A stretch of 54,447 nt of DNA, taken from positions 1 to 54,447 of IMG/VR virus record IMGVR_UViG_3300037099_000532, one strand, 5' to 3'. This document shows positions 2,173 to 13,881 of the stretch, one piece after another. The stretch comes from a virus. Its lineage: Duplodnaviria; Caudoviricetes. The notes under the pieces were generated by a model. The model was not told the origin of the DNA. It made no database searches and worked only from the letters and a program-made list of their open reading frames with translations. The position numbers and the translations under genes are program-made. Numbering within the stretch: position 1 is the first letter of the stretch; the number at the start of each line of letters is the position of its first letter.

Positions 2173-2592
2173 TCAAGAGCCCGAGGCGCCGGCCGTCGTC
2201 GTCACGGCGGCGGCAGGCACAGCGCTGACCGAGGTCGTCGAGGTGTAGCCGGCGGCGGCGCAGAGGTCGGAGGCCAGCGCGCCGGCCGAGGACGCCTTCT
2301 GAAGCGCGGCCTTGACCTTGGCGTCGACGGCCGCGTCGGCCTTGATCGCCGCGCCGAGAGAAACGGTGGCGTTGATGATCGGGCAGTACGTCTTCGCCAG
2401 CGCCGCGGCGAGCTTCTCCTGATTGGCGACGACATCGGAGCCGAGCTTGATCACCGCCGTGTCGAGTGTGTCGACAGCCTGAGTTGTGGTTGCGACGTTG
2501 TCGGCGAATTTCTGCGCTGAGTCGCTAGAGCAGCCGACGACGGCGCCGGGCAAAGCGAGCGCGAGCGCGCCCAGGAGAGCGAGTTTCTTCAT
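2173..2592 (-). CDS. Lipoprotein (o-spanin-like candidate)
   Basis: MKK + hydrophobic core + lipobox VVG-C followed by Ser. Confidence 0.75.
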   Translation of the reverse strand: MKKLALLGALALALPGAVVGCSSDSAQKFADNVATTTQAVDTLDTAVIKLGSDVVANQEKLAAALAKTYCPIINATVSLGAAIKADAAVDAKVKAALQKASSAGALASDLCAAAGYTSTTSVSAVPAAAVTTTAGASGS

Positions 2593-6972: not shown

Positions 6973-7398
6973 TCAGTCGATCACGATCGCCGCGGCGGCG
7001 GCGATCAGCGCCGTGACTTGCGCGGCGGTCAGCGGCGACGGGACGGCTGCGGCGAGCGCCAGCAGTGCTTTCGAGTCGGCGGGGATTTGGTTGGCCCCGA
7101 CGGCGAAGAACGCCGTCAGAGCGGCATTGTTCTGCGCCTGCACGGCGGCCTGCACTTGCGCCCAGGTCGGCGGCGCGAAGCCGAGCGCGGCGGGCGGATC
7201 GTTGCACACGACCTCGAGCTGCCACAGCAGCGCGGTCGGGACCGGCGCGGAGGCAAGCGGCGCCGGACTCGGCGTATTCCCGACGGCAAGCCAAGCCTGT
7301 ATATCAGCGCTGCTGACGAGACGGCTCTCCATCGACCCGTCGGCGTTCACGCGCACGACGGCAGTGTTCGAGTCGTCCGTATATTGCCAGCCGCTCAT
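6973..7398 (-). CDS. Tail fibre assembly/accessory protein
   Basis: ATGA-coupled to the fibre-like gene; WLAVGNTP-P motif typical of fibre chaperone-like proteins. Confidence 0.6.
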   Translation of the reverse strand: MSGWQYTDDSNTAVVRVNADGSMESRLVSSADIQAWLAVGNTPSPAPLASAPVPTALLWQLEVVCNDPPAALGFAPPTWAQVQAAVQAQNNAALTAFFAVGANQIPADSKALLALAAAVPSPLTAAQVTALIAAAAAIVID

Positions 7399-8543
7399 AG
7401 TTCGGCTCCGGTGAAATAGAATGACGTCGGCGTCATATCCAATTGGAAGAGGTATCCCGCCGTGAAGCTCGCGGTGGCGGTTGCGACGTAGATTCTCGCC
7501 GCGGACACGCTCACGCTGCCATTGATCGACAGTGCGCTCAAGGCGACGGGCGCCACGATGCTATCCTCGGTCGCCCAGATATTGGCGACCGTTCCGACAA
7601 TAACGCCGGTGACGGGAACCCGAGTTGGGATCGAAAAAAATACCGTAAAGTAACCGTGCGACGAGTCCCCAAACTCTCCAAGGCCGGGAAGCCGCCCGCT
7701 CGTAAACGCCGGCAAGTATCGTTGGGACTGCGCCAGCTCGACGCCGATCGGCCGCAGCTCCGGCGGCGGAACGGCTGCGGCGATCGCGTTGTTCGTCATG
7801 CCGGGCGTGGGGCGGAAGTCCGGCGCGGCGACCATGCATTTGACGGACGACGAGGCGAAAGCGGCGTTGCAATCGATGTCCACCTCGACGCCGTTGGCCG
7901 CATTGGCGTTCGGCGTCCAGGTGTAGGTCTCCAGGCACCACGTCGCGGTCGCGCAGGCCGTCAAGCTCGTCGCGCCCAGATCCGCGGTCGCGCCGGAATT
8001 GTTGGCGCAGTCGAACTTGTTGGTCCCACCATTCCATGTGTCCGCCGCCGTCGCGACGCACTCGACGATCTTCGGCGTGACCGTCGATCCGGTGTTCTGG
8101 TAGTACCAGAATTGCAGCGTCGAAACGACGCCCGCCACCGGCGACGCCATGAAGCTTTCAACGCGCTGGCCGATCTTGATGTCCGTGTTCGACGCGACGC
8201 CGTCGCACTCCAGCGCGTATTTGACGCCGACGCCGCTCGGGACGGTCGTCGATTGCTTGCAGGTCGCCGCGGCGCCGAAGCTGTAGCCAATCCAGCCATC
8301 GAGCGTGTAGCTCGGCGCACTGGCGATCGTCGTCGTCGTCGCCAGTCCCGACGCTCCGCGCTGCGCGACTTCCATCTTCGTGTTGCGGAAGACGTTGAGG
8401 AAGCCGCCGGGCATGTGCTGCGAAAGGAAGGACAGCGAAAGCGGCGACGGAGGCGGATTGGAAACGCCGTCGGCCGCCGCGCCGACGGGCGCCGCAGCGA
8501 GCGAGATGGCGATGAGAACGCCGGCGAGGATCTTGCGGAACAT
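7395..8543 (-). CDS. Tail fibre/receptor-binding-like protein with predicted Sec signal peptide
   Basis: N..RN..M..AQRG, YTLDGW, GQRVES, ELAQSQRY, terminal AEL fibre-domain pattern; N-terminal MFRKILAGVLIAISLAAAPVGAAA. Confidence 0.7.
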   Translation of the reverse strand: MFRKILAGVLIAISLAAAPVGAAADGVSNPPPSPLSLSFLSQHMPGGFLNVFRNTKMEVAQRGASGLATTTTIASAPSYTLDGWIGYSFGAAATCKQSTTVPSGVGVKYALECDGVASNTDIKIGQRVESFMASPVAGVVSTLQFWYYQNTGSTVTPKIVECVATAADTWNGGTNKFDCANNSGATADLGATSLTACATATWCLETYTWTPNANAANGVEVDIDCNAAFASSSVKCMVAAPDFRPTPGMTNNAIAAAVPPPELRPIGVELAQSQRYLPAFTSGRLPGLGEFGDSSHGYFTVFFSIPTRVPVTGVIVGTVANIWATEDSIVAPVALSALSINGSVSVSAARIYVATATASFTAGYLFQLDMTPTSFYFTGAEL

Positions 8544-11097: not shown

Positions 11098-12249
11098 TCA
11101 CGCGAACGTCAGCGCCCCCAGCGTCGGCACGCCGCCGGTCGCGATCGCCACGTCAGCGGTCGGCGCGATTATCACCGCGCGCTGGTCGCCGGCGGAATTG
11201 GCGACCGCCTGCGCCGCCCACAGCGCGGCGAACGACGTCGGCACGGCGAGGAACGGCATGGCGGTCAGCATGCCCGCCGTCGCCGCATCGGCGCCGGCGA
11301 CGCGGCCGAGGCGCTGGAACGTATCGAGCAGCTCGGCCCGAACGGCGTTCTGCTGCGCCGTCGTGTTCGGCGTCAGCCCTTGCACTGTGACGGCGATCGG
11401 CTGCGCCGTCGGCGCGACGACCGTCACCTGGGCGTCGCCCGGCGCATATTGCGCGATCAGATTGGCGACTGTCGCGATATGGCCGGCGTCGGCGATCCCG
11501 CCGGAAAACAGCGCGTCGAACATCGGAAAGACGCGGATCGTTCCCGCGCCGTTATAGAGCCGCTCGACAAAGGTGCGCGTGACGCCGGGAACCATGCCGG
11601 CCCACGAAACGTAGTCGGCCGGCGCGCCGCCTTGGAACGGGTTGCGCTTGCGAAACAGGATGCGGCCGCGATAGGTCGACAGGTCGGACGTGTAGGGCGC
11701 GCCGTCTGCTTCGACGTCGAGGCCGTTGGTCAAGCCGTTGGCGTCGACCGCCGCCGTCGCGGCCGCCGCGCCGGAGCCCGACGCGCCGGAGACGATGGTC
11801 AGCGCCGTTCCGGCCTGCGTGTTGCCCGCCGCCGCCGCGTTCACGGCGACCACGGCGACATTGAACGTCCCGGCCGCGCCGATCGACCCGCCGGTCGAGG
11901 CGGTGAACGCCGTCCCGTCGAGCCGCTGCAATTGCGCTCCGGCGGCGATCGCCATCGCGTCGGGCGCGGTGACCACGACGTTGCCGCTCGCCGCGCTGGC
12001 GAGCTTGCGCGCCAAACCGATCTCCGCGCCGTGGTCGTCGAGATCGGACCCGACCGCCGTCAGGGCGAATTTGGCTCGCTGGACGTCGTCCATGCGGTTG
12101 AACAGCTCCCATGCCGAACCGCCGATGACCTTGGCGCTCGGGCCGATGTTGTTCGGCCACAGCCAGGCGTCGGTGCCTGGCAGATAGGCGCGGAACGCCT
12201 GCCGCGTCTTCTCGACGCACGCGGCGAGCGACGGGATCGAAAAGGTCAT
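11098..12249 (-). CDS. Baseplate J / Mu gp47 family
   Basis: GLARKLASAASG, AAGNT, DVEAD..YRGRIL, GGAPADYVSWA. Confidence 0.92.
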   Translation of the reverse strand: MTFSIPSLAACVEKTRQAFRAYLPGTDAWLWPNNIGPSAKVIGGSAWELFNRMDDVQRAKFALTAVGSDLDDHGAEIGLARKLASAASGNVVVTAPDAMAIAAGAQLQRLDGTAFTASTGGSIGAAGTFNVAVVAVNAAAAGNTQAGTALTIVSGASGSGAAAATAAVDANGLTNGLDVEADGAPYTSDLSTYRGRILFRKRNPFQGGAPADYVSWAGMVPGVTRTFVERLYNGAGTIRVFPMFDALFSGGIADAGHIATVANLIAQYAPGDAQVTVVAPTAQPIAVTVQGLTPNTTAQQNAVRAELLDTFQRLGRVAGADAATAGMLTAMPFLAVPTSFAALWAAQAVANSAGDQRAVIIAPTADVAIATGGVPTLGALTFA

Positions 12250-12265: not shown

Positions 12266-13249
12266 TCAACGGGTGTAGGTGCAGAGAAAGCGATGCCCGG
12301 TCGTCGCTGCGTTGACCGAAACGGCCGCCTGGATCACCGTGCCCGCCAGGGTCAGCGTCGCGGAGCCGCCCGGCGCGAGATCGAAATAGTCGCCGGCGCC
12401 GGTGGTCGTCGCCGCGCCGGTCACGGAGCCGAACAGATCCTCGGTCGCCGCCACCGGGTTCTCGATCAGCAGACTCTTGCGCGAAGAATCCGCCGCCGCG
12501 GCGGTCTGCGCCGCGCCGCCGGTCGTGATCGTTCCGCCGCAGTCGGTCGGCGCGACCGCCAGCGGCGCAATCGTGCCGCCGGTCGCCTGCATCGGCGAAC
12601 CCAGCGCCGTCAGGATCGAGGTCAATCGCTGCGCCAGCCGCTGCATCTGCGCGTTGAGCGCGCACGAGGCGGTGTCGGTGGCGCAGGCGGCCGCGCCAGG
12701 CGCGCCGAGGTCGGTCTCGAGCTGCGACTCGGTGACTGCGAGGTTCGAAGCGATCAGCGACGTCAGCCGCTGGGCGATGCGCTGCAGCAGCGCGTTGACG
12801 TTGCACGAGCCGGAATCGGTCGCGCACGCGGTCGAGCCGGGCGCGCCGAAATCGAGGTAGAGACCCGACAGCCAGCCGCGAATGCCGGCCGCGCCGGCCG
12901 GCGGCGTCGCGCCGGTCGCGTCGGTCCCGTCCTGCGCCGCCCCTTGCGGCAGCGGCGGCAGGTCGGTCCCCGAGAACGGCAGACCGGTCGCCGGGTCGAC
13001 GGCGACGAAGCCGCACACCAGCGACCCGTCCGCCACCGCCCAGCAGTGCTCTTTCTGCGCGACGTGATTGCCGTCGAGGATGTTGAGGTCCTGCACGCTC
13101 GGCGTTTGCGCCGCCGCCGGCGCGACCGCCCACACCGTCATTGCGAGGAGCGCAGCGACGAAGCAATCCAGGCCGCGCCCCAATCCTTGGATGGCTTCGC
13201 TTCGCTCGCAATGACGGTTGTGGCCGAACAACATGTGTGGCTCCATCAA
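12266..13249 (-). CDS. Predicted secreted, Cys-paired repeat protein inside the baseplate operon
   Basis: Signal peptide ending APAAA/QT; two GAPG..ACATD..SC..NA..QR.AQRLTS repeats; beta-rich C-terminal domain. Confidence 0.7.
   Translation of the reverse strand: MMEPHMLFGHNRHCERSEAIQGLGRGLDCFVAALLAMTVWAVAPAAAQTPSVQDLNILDGNHVAQKEHCWAVADGSLVCGFVAVDPATGLPFSGTDLPPLPQGAAQDGTDATGATPPAGAAGIRGWLSGLYLDFGAPGSTACATDSGSCNVNALLQRIAQRLTSLIASNLAVTESQLETDLGAPGAAACATDTASCALNAQMQRLAQRLTSILTALGSPMQATGGTIAPLAVAPTDCGGTITTGGAAQTAAAADSSRKSLLIENPVAATEDLFGSVTGAATTTGAGDYFDLAPGGSATLTLAGTVIQAAVSVNAATTGHRFLCTYTR
13134..13218. repeat. CGTC-type/RPE-like palindromic repeat inserted in-frame
   Basis: ACCGTCATTGCGAG...CTCGCAATGACGGT terminal inverted repeats; encodes HCERSEAIQ..LDCFVAALLAMT. 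Confidence 0.85.
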
Positions 13250-13881
13250 GGCAGCAGCGGCGCGAGGCCGCTATTGACGGGATTGCTGAAATCGAGGCCG
13301 GGCGCGTCGTAGCGCAGCGACCCCGCCGGCGACGTCGGCATGGGGCTGAATTCCCTCGCCCAGATATTGTTGAAGCGGCGGTCGTAGATCTTGCTTCCGT
13401 TCCTGCCGTAGAGTTGCACGGCGAGATCGAGCCGGCTCGGCGGGTTGGCGTAGGCTTGCACGGCGACGCGGGCGCAGGCGCCCTGCCTCGCCAGCCCAGC
13501 GAGCGCGTCCTGGGCGAAGGTGACCGCCCAGCGCGGCGTCGCGACGGGATCGAGGATCGAGCGTTCGAGCAGCCACAGCAGCGAGCCGAGCGGGTCTTCG
13601 CCGAGATCGGTCCGCACGTCGACCGCGTCGCCCCACCAGCCGCCCATGTCGCCGTCGGGCGGCGTCAGCGGGTGGCCGTCCGGGCAGCGGCGATTGGTGA
13701 ACAACGAGTCGATCACCGCCGTGTCGAGCGGCCGCATCGCCTGCAAGCCGCCGGCGTTGTGCGGCTCGCTCGGCTGCGCGACCGCCCAATCGGCGAACCC
13801 GCCCTCGGAATTCCATACGGAATCCCACAACAGCTCCGGCTGCGCCGCGCAGCCTTCGTTGATGCGGACGTTGATGTCCAT
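13246..13881 (-). CDS. Baseplate protein, Mu gp46 family
   Basis: LDTAVIDSLFT, GGWWGD, LGSLLWLLER. Confidence 0.9.
   Translation of the reverse strand: MDINVRINEGCAAQPELLWDSVWNSEGGFADWAVAQPSEPHNAGGLQAMRPLDTAVIDSLFTNRRCPDGHPLTPPDGDMGGWWGDAVDVRTDLGEDPLGSLLWLLERSILDPVATPRWAVTFAQDALAGLARQGACARVAVQAYANPPSRLDLAVQLYGRNGSKIYDRRFNNIWAREFSPMPTSPAGSLRYDAPGLDFSNPVNSGLAPLLP

What the first reader, a model, noticed from the sequence alone, without database searches (positions are those of the whole stretch)
13134..13218. Palindromic repeat inserted in-frame supplies part of a signal peptide
Seen: an 85-bp CGTC-type/RPE-like inverted repeat lies in the 5' end of the 12266-13249 gene, which overlaps the gp46 stop (ATGA). 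Its translation LDCFVAALLAMT forms most of the hydrophobic region before VWAVAPAAA/QT. Inference: a host selfish repeat has been co-opted into, or has replaced part of, an export signal in a phage gene. The hairpin could also tune translation.
Basis: partly seen in the sequence, partly recalled or inferred. Interest (0 to 1): 0.7.

Follow-up and report, generated by a model that had tools for sequence, protein, structure and literature searches.

The report
Palindromic repeat inside phage signal peptide
A short selfish hairpin repeat common in soil alphaproteobacteria has landed, in frame, in the export-signal codons of an accessory prophage gene and now probably encodes half of that signal's hydrophobic core; this is a clean new example of a known kind of event.

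Summary
An 85-bp hairpin-forming inverted repeat (13134-13218) lies in the 5' end of the minus-strand gene 12266-13249. One detail is wrong: the overlap with the gp46 stop is TGATG, not ATGA.

The repeat belongs to a dispersed family with CGTC-tagged ends. The phage holds one copy. Three Rhizobiales genomes hold 120-266 copies of the head motif.

All eight homologues whose N-terminus aligns have a 20-25 residue signal peptide and no insert. The conserved stop-GGAG-ATG arrangement behind gp46 survives upstream of the repeat. The distance from the start codon to a conserved LDG motif is exactly 28 codons longer than in relatives. So this is a clean 84-nt in-frame insertion, not a replacement.

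The repeat-coded CFVAALLAMT supplies 10 of the 19 uncharged residues before AAA|Q. The internal Met would leave only 11 residues, has no Shine-Dalgarno and sits inside the hairpin stem.

The same repeat, in the same frame, sits inside the signal peptide of an iron-binding periplasmic protein family whose close relatives lack it. That speaks for tolerance. Export itself is untested.

Repeat-built signal peptides have been proposed before (Yersinia YPAL, Rickettsia RPE). This scan has also noted them on other DNA. Verdict: real, ordinary-to-moderately interesting, a new member of a known kind.

The parts
13136..13219 (-). Net 84-nt (28-codon) in-frame insertion, codons N6-T33 counted from ATG 13234. 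It translates as NRHCERSEAIQGLGRGLDCFVAALLAMT.
   Evidence: Borders of family copies. Loose ends of other copies at 13134-13137 and 13168-13173. The LDG motif is at codons 53-55 here, against 26-28 (L005) and 25-27 (L006). Translation.
13134..13147 (.). Outer arm of the inverted repeat. It carries the CGTC tag, and on the gene strand it contains the internal ATG 13139-13141.
   Evidence: 14 nt, 100% complementary to 13205-13218
13205..13218 (.). Other outer arm of the inverted repeat (CGTC tag).
13159..13170 (.). Inner arm (GAAGCAATCCA-type), paired with 13188-13199.
   Evidence: 12 nt, 92%; conserved in family copies
13188..13199 (.). Inner arm partner.
13171..13187 (.). Variable loop or spacer of the element. 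It encodes GLGRG-type residues and holds an in-frame TTG (13181-13183) with AAGGA directly abutting it.
   Evidence: The loop differs among copies; sequence.
13241..13244 (-). GGAG Shine-Dalgarno, six bases before ATG 13234.
   Evidence: The same stop-GGAG-N4-6-ATG layout follows gp46 in L005 and L006.
13232..13234 (-). Most likely start codon of gene X (322-aa product; the start that public gene calls use, P0001).
13244..13246 (-). Alternative in-frame ATG overlapping the gp46 stop by one base (TGATG).
   Evidence: The hub/gp46 junction uses the same style (TAATG).
13106..13117 (-). Predicted signal-peptidase site, A40-A41-A42 | Q43.
   Evidence: codons. It aligns with the AxA ends of the homologues' signal peptides. 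Cleavage is inferred.
12266..13234 (-). Gene X, an accessory phage gene. It has a signal-peptide-like N-terminus, two GAPG...QRLAQRLTS motifs and a C-terminal jelly-roll domain.
   Evidence: It is absent between gp46 and baseplate J in related prophages.
13246..13881 (-). Mu gp46-like baseplate gene (211 aa), directly upstream.
   Evidence: Pfam PF07409, E 4e-20; start and stop
11098..12249 (-). Baseplate J-like gene, directly downstream.
   Evidence: Pfam PF04865, E 1.5e-42

Best explanation
An 84-nt palindromic repeat has inserted into the signal-peptide codons of X. The repeat has CGTC-tagged ends, two inverted half-units with their tails inward, and belongs to a family dispersed in Rhizobiales genomes. 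X is an accessory gene wedged between gp46 and baseplate J of a temperate phage with a Mu-like baseplate.

Genes in this operon are packed with 1-nt overlaps. The spot just behind the gp46 stop, where such repeats usually land, is therefore already inside X.

The insert is a multiple of three and has no stop in this phase. Translation still starts at the ancestral site (GGAG-N6-ATG 13234, or the coupled ATG 13246) and reads through the repeat.

The first arm and loop add 16 polar or basic residues to the n-region. The second arm gives LDCFVAALLAMT. Together with the nine native residues VWAVAPAAA, this makes a 19-residue uncharged stretch ending in AAA|Q.

Shown: the insertion, its phase, the retained upstream start signals and the composition of the resulting leader.

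Inferred: that the leader is translated as such, is recognised by Sec and is cut after A42.
For: (1) Family and borders. Other copies in four metagenome runs stack on 13115-13236 (depth 19-197 against about 2-10 beside it), with loose ends at the unit borders.

(2) All 8 homologues whose N-terminus aligns (P0002-P0008 and the L006 ORF) start with a 20-25 residue n/h/AxA leader and no insert.

(3) In L005 and L006 the gene follows gp46 as stop-GGAG-N4-6-ATG. The window keeps TGA-T-GGAG-N6-ATG upstream of the repeat.

(4) The distance from the start codon to the LDG motif is 53 codons, against 25-26 in relatives. The difference is 28 codons, or 84 nt.

(5) With the repeat, the uncharged run is 19 residues and the best 10-residue hydropathy is 2.54. 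In the six homologues the simple measure could score, the run is 16-21; best hydropathy across all eight is 2.40-3.39. From the internal ATG 13141 the leader is 11 residues with hydropathy 1.43.

(6) ATG 13141 has no purine-rich tract before it and lies in the 14-bp perfect stem of a -51.9 kcal/mol hairpin.

(7) Parallel case in a Fe3+-type solute-binding protein. P0241 (371 aa, 132 member sequences) equals P0250 (343 aa, 329 members) plus a 28-residue block inside the signal peptide. The block reads NRHCERSEAIQ-x5-LDCFVAALLAMT. The first 10 residues upstream of it are identical in the two proteins. 8 of the 120 listed orthologues carry the motif. What remains downstream of the motif (7-14 residues) is too short for a leader on its own.

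(8) The identical X protein is on record on 5 contigs. The locus with the repeat recurs in L028. A 237-nt contig from an RNA library spans 13028-13264 with no differences.

(9) AlphaFold2 puts a helix on residues 21-36, over the repeat-coded hydrophobic stretch.
Against: - No signal-peptide predictor and no experiment were available.
- The n-region is long (23 residues) with net charge 0, and an Asp sits next to the hydrophobic core. Homologues have +1 to +2.
- The five codons before the insert and the nine after it would together give only 14 residues. The pre-insertion leader was therefore atypical or has drifted since, and the ancestral state is uncertain.
- Only one lineage carries the insert at this locus, so conservation of the frame cannot be tested here.
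- Di Nocera et al. warn that many REPs annotated at N-termini are really extragenic (PMC3733652, passages read).
- The solute-binding-protein evidence is at protein level only. Gene callers prefer long ORFs. I could not retrieve the DNA.
- A contig from an RNA library does not prove transcription.
Confidence: 0.6

Rival explanations
1. The repeat is translated, but it has crippled the leader. X is made with a long, charge-neutral N-terminus and is poorly exported, left as an uncleaved membrane anchor, or is on its way to becoming a pseudogene.
For: The n-region has net charge 0, three His, and an Asp flanking the core. Homologues have +1 to +2. X is an accessory gene that related prophages do without, so loss of function would be tolerated. 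No expression or export data exist.
Against: The 322-codon frame is intact, with third-position GC of 0.88, like the neighbouring genes. The same allele was seen without differences in several runs and contigs. Solute-binding proteins that must be exported keep the same repeat-coded block down to 74-78% identity.
Confidence: 0.2
2. Translation starts downstream of the repeat (ATG 13141 or GTG 13135). The repeat is then an untranslated intercistronic hairpin of the ordinary REP kind, acting on mRNA stability or coupling.
For: REPs typically sit just 3' of an upstream ORF between co-directional genes. Many 'N-terminal' REPs are thought to be extragenic (PMC3733652). The repeat starts 27 nt after the gp46 stop.
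Against: There is no Shine-Dalgarno before either codon, and ATG 13141 is paired in the perfect stem. The leader would be 9-11 residues with no n-region, against 20-25 in 8 of 8 homologues. The conserved GGAG-ATG is upstream and in frame. No terminator-like or promoter-like site was found in 12800-13600.
Confidence: 0.12
3. Translation starts inside the repeat at TTG 13183. This gives a 25-residue leader of normal length, so the repeat supplies the start codon, the n-region and half of the core.
For: The leader from this codon has the homologues' length (25 residues) and the same 19-residue uncharged run. An AAGGA lies just upstream.
Against: The AAGGA abuts the TTG with no spacer. The codon lies in the loop or inner stem of the hairpin. 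The ancestral start signals upstream are intact and in frame.
Confidence: 0.05
4. The repeat at this place is an assembly artefact, a chimeric join through a repeated sequence.
For: Short-read assemblers can mis-join at repeats. One DNA contig (X8, record 25) switches to another copy's loop near its end.
Against: Independent contigs bridge both junctions: X16 record 17 covers 13028-13264 with 0 differences, and X10 record 7 covers 13144-13719. L028 carries the repeat at the same place. The identical protein is on 5 contigs.
Confidence: 0.02

Closest known systems
Rickettsia palindromic elements (RPE; Ogata et al. 2000, as summarised in PMC2229807 and PMC3733652, passages read)
   Same: A hairpin-forming repeat of about 100 bp from an alphaproteobacterium, dispersed between genes. 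It is also found inserted in frame inside protein-coding genes, which stay open.
   Different: A different sequence family and different hosts (free-living Rhizobiales, peat). The target here is a prophage gene, and the insert falls in a cleavable leader rather than in the body of a conserved enzyme.
CGTC-tagged REPs (Di Nocera, De Gregorio and Rocco 2013, PMC3733652; passages and two supplements searched)
   Same: CGTC at the outer end, AT as the first two stem bases, a CCA-type tail (GCAATCCAG) and inverted pairs of units. They are abundant in alphaproteobacteria including Bradyrhizobium and Rhodopseudomonas. Some copies are intragenic, with an excess at N-termini. That paper's supplement lists REP-coded residues 5-32 and 10-31 of two Pseudomonas periplasmic binding proteins.
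   Different: The half-units here do not fold on their own into the 8-9 bp stem with 4-5 nt loop that defines those families. The pair is tails-inward, whereas head-to-head pairs dominate. The paper's consensus figures are not held, so sequence identity with CGTC-1 or CGTC-3 could not be checked.
Yersinia YPAL/RU-2 element and locus YPO1552 (Delihas 2007, as reviewed in PMC2229807; passages read)
   Same: A palindromic mobile repeat whose open frame is rich in hydrophobic residues and which was predicted to form part of the signal peptide of an exported protein.
   Different: A 168-bp enterobacterial element. There the fusion was thought to create a new gene. Here the repeat entered an existing leader whose homologues are known, and a second family shows the filled and empty states.
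Exported accessory ('moron') proteins encoded inside phage tail modules, such as lambda Lom and Bor, T5 Llp, Cor (recalled from own knowledge, no call)
   Same: A non-essential gene with an export signal sits among tail or baseplate genes of a temperate phage. Related phages lack it.
   Different: No sequence or fold relation to those proteins was found. The function of X is unknown. Its C-terminal jelly roll resembles uncharacterised phage proteins and, weakly, fibre or spike domains.

Membership tests
CGTC-tagged REP superfamily (Di Nocera et al. 2013) | CGTC tetranucleotide at one end of each unit | tested here: met
   Both outer ends read CCGTCATTGCGAG.
CGTC-tagged REP superfamily (Di Nocera et al. 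2013) | Each unit is a short stem-loop (8-9 bp stem starting with AT, 4-5 nt loop) with a CCA-like tail | tested here: not met
   AT start and CCA tail are present (ATTGC...GCAATCCAG). But the single half-units fold no better than shuffles: -6.4 kcal/mol with z -0.9, and -1.1 kcal/mol with z +1.5. Only the pair folds well, at -29 kcal/mol as DNA with z -5.3.
CGTC-tagged REP superfamily (Di Nocera et al. 2013) | High copy number, dispersed in the genome | tested here: met
   266, 149 and 120 head motifs in three genomes against 0-1 for the control. Found in 15 of 151 sampled genomes. The host genome itself is not held.
CGTC-tagged REP superfamily (Di Nocera et al. 2013) | Sequence match to a named family (CGTC-1 to CGTC-4) | not testable with these tools
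   The consensus sequences are in figures that are not held. The motif strings were not found in the text or in supplement 4.
MITE (miniature inverted-repeat transposable element) | Terminal inverted repeats plus target-site duplication | tested here: not met
   Terminal inverted repeats are present. No direct repeat flanks this copy or the five full-length copies aligned.
Rickettsia palindromic elements (RPE) | In-frame insertion into a protein-coding gene that stays open | tested here: met
   A 28-codon insertion with the frame open over 322 codons.
Rickettsia palindromic elements (RPE) | Membership of the Rickettsia RPE sequence families | not tested
   No RPE sequence was available from a tool. 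It works like an RPE but was not filed as one.
Sec-type (signal peptidase I) signal peptide | Positively charged n-region | tested here: inconclusive
   From ATG 13234: 3 Arg, 2 Glu, 1 Asp, 3 His, net 0.
Sec-type (signal peptidase I) signal peptide | Hydrophobic core of about 10-15 residues | tested here: met
   CFVAALLAMTVWAVA lies within a 19-residue uncharged run. Best 10-residue hydropathy is 2.54, within the homologues' 2.40-3.39. A helix is predicted at residues 21-36.
Sec-type (signal peptidase I) signal peptide | Small residues at -3 and -1 (AxA) after a helix breaker | tested here: met
   P39-A40-A41-A42 | Q43. It aligns with the homologues' PAGA, PAFA and PVLA ends.
Sec-type (signal peptidase I) signal peptide | Export and cleavage demonstrated | not testable with these tools
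   No predictor such as SignalP and no experiment were available.

The most novel reading that the evidence does not exclude
This repeat family may be pre-adapted as a portable leader module. In phase 0, in either orientation, it encodes a polar or basic first half and a hydrophobic second half (...LDCFVAALLAMT or ...LDGFASLAMTV). Landings inside signal-peptide codons are therefore not merely tolerated. They are repeatedly kept as the working hydrophobic core, as in the phage gene X and in at least 8 of 120 orthologues of a periplasmic iron-binding protein, including decayed copies that keep the hydrophobicity. A complete temperate phage that carries a copy could also move the repeat between hosts. 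That would help explain why the family occurs in several Rhizobiales lineages and, as half-units, in a betaproteobacterial MAG.
Probability: 0.3. Interest if true: 0.55.

Novelty: new member of a known kind. Interest (0 to 1): 0.35.

Why it matters
It shows how a selfish DNA palindrome can be absorbed into a working protein-coding signal instead of breaking the gene. The example has unusually clear before-and-after comparisons: homologous phage genes without the insert, and a bacterial binding-protein family with both states.

In practice, such repeats mislead start-codon calling and signal-peptide prediction. The repeat arm also produced a false sub-threshold riboswitch hit.

The phage setting shows that prophages are exposed to the host's repeat traffic and can carry the repeats along. 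It does not reveal a new kind of system.

Tried and rejected
- **Rfam.** Only a sub-threshold SAH-riboswitch hit at 13139-13272 on the + strand (25.9 bits against a cut-off of 37), caused by the GAGGAGCGCAGCGAC arm, and a weak Mcr7 hit. Both rejected as chance.
- **Promoter and terminator scan, 12800-13600.** None found.
- **Empty-site allele.** No joint skipping 13134-13218 appeared in the four runs laid (X14, X16, X8, X10). Contigs cannot show rare variants, so this says little.
- **Variant loop letters at 13171-13187.** They occur in one X8 contig near its end and are best read as a path into another repeat copy.
- **Joint 12793-12898.** Seen in three runs, with 22 foreign letters and sides of 18-21. 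Treated as another organism or relative.
- **DNA alignment of the gp46-X junction with L005 and L006.** Too diverged to place the insert, so I used codon spacing instead.
- **DNA of the solute-binding-protein example.** Not found in 5 repeat-rich genomes or in 401 sampled genomes at E <= 1e-100. This does not show absence.
- **Host identification.** The record is the virus alone and has no tRNA gene. The best genome matches to the baseplate region are only 68-79% identical.
- **Fold search against PDB.** Nothing at E <= 0.001. Jelly-roll matches are weak (E about 0.01).
- **Literature strings.** The three DNA strings and RHCERSEAIQ occur in no paper of the library. Figures are not held.
- **Di Nocera supplements.** No row for this element.
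- **Br-REP1 and Br-REP2 of Hahn et al. 2016 (PMC5082802, passages read).** Their consensus sequences differ from this element.
- **First alignment A1.** Too diverse for locus finding. Replaced by A2.

Full report
**What is there**

The window is a complete temperate phage held as an IMG/VR provirus record. It has a lambda-type terminase, portal and capsid, a contractile-tail baseplate of the Mu kind, lysis genes and an integrase.

The finding lies on the minus strand. An ORF at 12266-13249, here called X, follows the gp46-like gene (13246-13881) and precedes the baseplate J-like gene (11098-12249).

The inverted repeat is real:
- The outer arms, 13134-13147 and 13205-13218, are 14 nt and perfectly complementary.
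- The inner arms, 13159-13170 and 13188-13199, are 12 nt and 92% complementary.
- With one bulge the pairing reaches 13130-13223.
- As RNA that 94-nt stretch folds at -51.9 kcal/mol, z -5.6, with 0 of 200 shuffles as stable.

The gp46 stop TGA (13246-13248) overlaps an in-frame ATG (13244-13246) by one base (TGATG), not ATGA. The hub/gp46 junction upstream is built the same way (TAATG).

**It is a dispersed repeat**

Copies 81-85% identical to the window copy, with the same borders, occur in a Methylocella MAG and an alphaproteobacterial MAG. A Janthinobacterium MAG has half-units only.

The aligned copies share the two CGTC-tagged ends and the inner GAAGCAATCCAG / CTGGATTGCTTC arms. Their loops differ. 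No target-site duplication is visible.

The element was found in 15 of 151 sampled genomes of the order of the Methylocella MAG. The 12-nt head motif occurs 266, 149, 120, 8 and 4 times in five of them, against 0-1 for the reversed control.

The phage has a single copy.

In four metagenome runs, contigs from other copies pile up on 13115-13236. Summed depth there is 19-197, against about 2-10 beside it. Their loose ends fall at 13134-13137 and 13168-13173, which marks the unit borders independently.

The features recall the CGTC-tagged REPs of Di Nocera et al. (PMC3733652; passages read): a CGTC tag, AT-first stems, a CCA tail, inverted pairs and abundance in alphaproteobacteria. The half-units do not fold alone, however. 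The paper's consensus figures are not held. I therefore call it CGTC-tagged and REP/RPE-like rather than a member of a named family.

**It is a clean in-frame insertion into a leader**

X has no Pfam family. It belongs to a modular phage protein family with 1262 representatives at E <= 0.001.

The eight homologues whose N-terminus aligns are P0002-P0008 and the L006 ORF. All start with a 20-25 residue leader made of a short basic n-region, a hydrophobic core and an AxA end. None has the insert.

In L005 and L006 the gene sits between gp46 and baseplate J, as it does here. It starts as stop-GGAG-N4-6-ATG. The window keeps TGA-T-GGAG-N6-ATG (ATG 13232-13234) upstream of the repeat. This is also the start in the public gene call P0001.

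A conserved LDG motif lies at codons 53-55 in the window, 26-28 in L005 and 25-27 in L006. The window is therefore longer by 28 codons, or 84 nt, the size of the element. The repeat was added. It did not replace leader sequence.

In this phase the element reads NRHCERSEAIQGLGRG followed by LDCFVAALLAMT. Four of its six frames are open. Phase 0 in either orientation ends in a hydrophobic stretch.

**Which start codon**

| Start | Leader |
|---|---|
| ATG 13234 | 42 residues: a 23-residue n-region with net charge 0, then a 19-residue uncharged run ending AAA\|Q. Best 10-residue hydropathy 2.54. |
| Homologues | Uncharged run 16-21 (in the six the simple measure could score), hydropathy 2.40-3.39 |
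| Internal ATG 13141 | 11 residues, hydropathy 1.43, no n-region |

ATG 13141 has no Shine-Dalgarno and is paired in the perfect outer stem. An in-frame TTG at 13183 would give a normal-length leader, but its AAGGA abuts it without a spacer.

Under every start other than 13141 or 13135, the repeat supplies CFVAALLAMT, which is 10 of the 19 core residues.

AlphaFold2 places a helix on residues 21-36, over that stretch.

**A parallel natural experiment**

I searched with the first 50 residues of the window ORF for longer proteins. This returned a Fe3+-type periplasmic solute-binding protein, P0241. P0241 has 371 aa and 132 member sequences.

P0241 equals P0250 (343 aa, 329 member sequences) plus 28 residues inside the signal peptide. 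The first ten residues upstream of the block are identical in the two proteins. The block reads NRHCERSEAIQ-x5-LDCFVAALLAMT, the same frame and orientation as in X.

Of the 120 orthologues listed, 8 carry the hydrophobic motif and one more looks like a decayed copy. The architectures are varied:
- short and long versions;
- one with the first arm in another frame;
- one half-unit;
- one degenerate copy that keeps the hydrophobicity.

The median length before a conserved anchor is 60.5 residues in these, against 31 in the 93 without the motif. What remains between the motif and the cleavage site is 7-14 residues, too short for a leader.

These proteins must reach the periplasm to work, and they stay intact down to 74-78% identity. 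Tolerance, and probably use, of the repeat-coded core is therefore plausible.

Caveats: this is protein-level evidence from automatic gene calls, and I could not fetch the DNA.

**What X is**

- Related prophages in three sampled genomes join gp46 directly to baseplate J without X. X is therefore an accessory gene.
- It has two copies of a GAPG...QRLAQRLTS motif where its close homologues have one.
- Its C-terminal ~100-residue jelly roll is modelled with pLDDT near 98.
- That domain matches phrog_22789 (unknown function) and uncharacterised phage proteins.
- Matches to solved structures are weak (E about 0.01: Ena fibre subunits, plant-virus capsids, PM2 spike).
- Many other family members lack a leader and look like tail fibres with LPLPxGAAQDGTD repeats.

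An exported accessory protein in a tail module recalls lambda Lom and Bor or T5 Llp. That comparison is my own recollection. No relation was found and the function of X remains open.

**Occurrence**

The stretch or part of it is held by 20 listed runs from 19 studies, in peat and bioreactor metagenomes. Six runs are flagged as possible sources.

A 237-nt contig of an RNA library spans 13028-13264 without a difference, and a DNA contig spans 13144-13719. L028 is an indel-ridden copy of the same locus with the repeat.

An RNA-library contig does not prove transcription.

**How it compares with what is known**

- In-frame palindromic repeats in genes are known from Rickettsia RPEs and from GTAG and CGTC REPs (PMC3733652, PMC2229807; passages read).
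- The Delihas review reports a Yersinia locus, YPO1552, whose predicted signal peptide is partly formed by the YPAL element.
- Di Nocera's supplement lists REP-coded N-terminal residues in two Pseudomonas periplasmic binding proteins.
- Two full-text searches for a repeat-derived signal peptide returned nothing closer among the 12-15 papers each listed. A third gave the Delihas review.
- This scan's earlier notes include 54 findings that hold the same words on other genomes. Several describe REPs translated inside leaders. They are unchecked leads and I formed my reading before seeing them.

**Verdict**

This is a real, well-documented new example of a known kind of event. It has two modest points of interest: the phage setting, and the recurrent use of the same repeat frame as a leader core.

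Noticed in passing
P0241 vs P0250 and 118 further orthologues (proteins): A Fe3+-type periplasmic solute-binding protein family has alleles with and without the same repeat inside the signal peptide. The two states differ by 28 residues. 8 of the 120 listed carry the LDCFVAALLAMT-like motif, including decayed and half-unit versions.
   Followed up: partly
window 7395-8543 (-): A second gene of the tail-fibre region has a signal-peptide-like N-terminus (MFRKILAGVLIAISLAAAPVGAAA...) joined to a tail-fibre-like C-terminal part (phrog_4492, E 1e-14). Two fibre-like proteins of one phage with export-type leaders is odd.
   Followed up: no
window 2173-2592 (-): A small ORF with a lipoprotein-like N-terminus (MKKLALLGALALALPGAVVGCSSD...) lies near the left end of the phage.
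   Followed up: no
window 12266-13234 (-); L038 (G104), L037/L039 (G344), L035/L040 (G079): Gene X is absent from related prophages, where gp46 abuts baseplate J directly. It is present in L005 and L006. It is therefore an accessory gene inserted in the baseplate operon.
   Followed up: partly
window 12690-12850 (-), residues 130-165 and 177-212 of X: X carries an internal duplication of a GAPG..C.TD..SC..NA..QR.AQRLTS motif. Homologues P0002-P0005 have one copy. A joint 12793-12898 with 22 foreign letters in three runs may come from relatives.
   Followed up: no
window 13139-13272 (+): A sub-threshold Rfam SAH-riboswitch hit (25.9 bits, cut-off 37, E 0.0096) is produced by the repeat arm GAGGAGCGCAGCGAC. 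Copies of this repeat may give false riboswitch hits elsewhere.
   Followed up: yes
G117, G074; G051 contig C137 27140-27440: In repeat-rich genomes most head motifs come as head-to-head pairs about 31 nt apart. The window copy is the rarer tails-inward pair. One genome has arrays of half-units spaced about 130 nt apart.
   Followed up: no
L020, L023, L026 (G003, Janthinobacterium MAG): Half-units of the same repeat, 89-94% identical over about 36 nt, occur in a betaproteobacterial MAG (12 matches). This could be shared ancestry, transfer or bin contamination.
   Followed up: no
L028 (metagenome contig, 1846 b): A near-identical copy of the gp46-X region, including the repeat, is riddled with single-base indels that break every frame. 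It looks like a low-quality assembly rather than a decayed gene.
   Followed up: partly
window 13246-13881 (-) vs L038 1691-2254 (-): The window's gp46 has about 30 extra C-terminal residues (…SPMPTSPAGSLRYDAPGLDFSNPVNSGLAPLLP). The gp46 of the X-less prophage lacks them. L005 and L006, which have X, share the extension.
   Followed up: no
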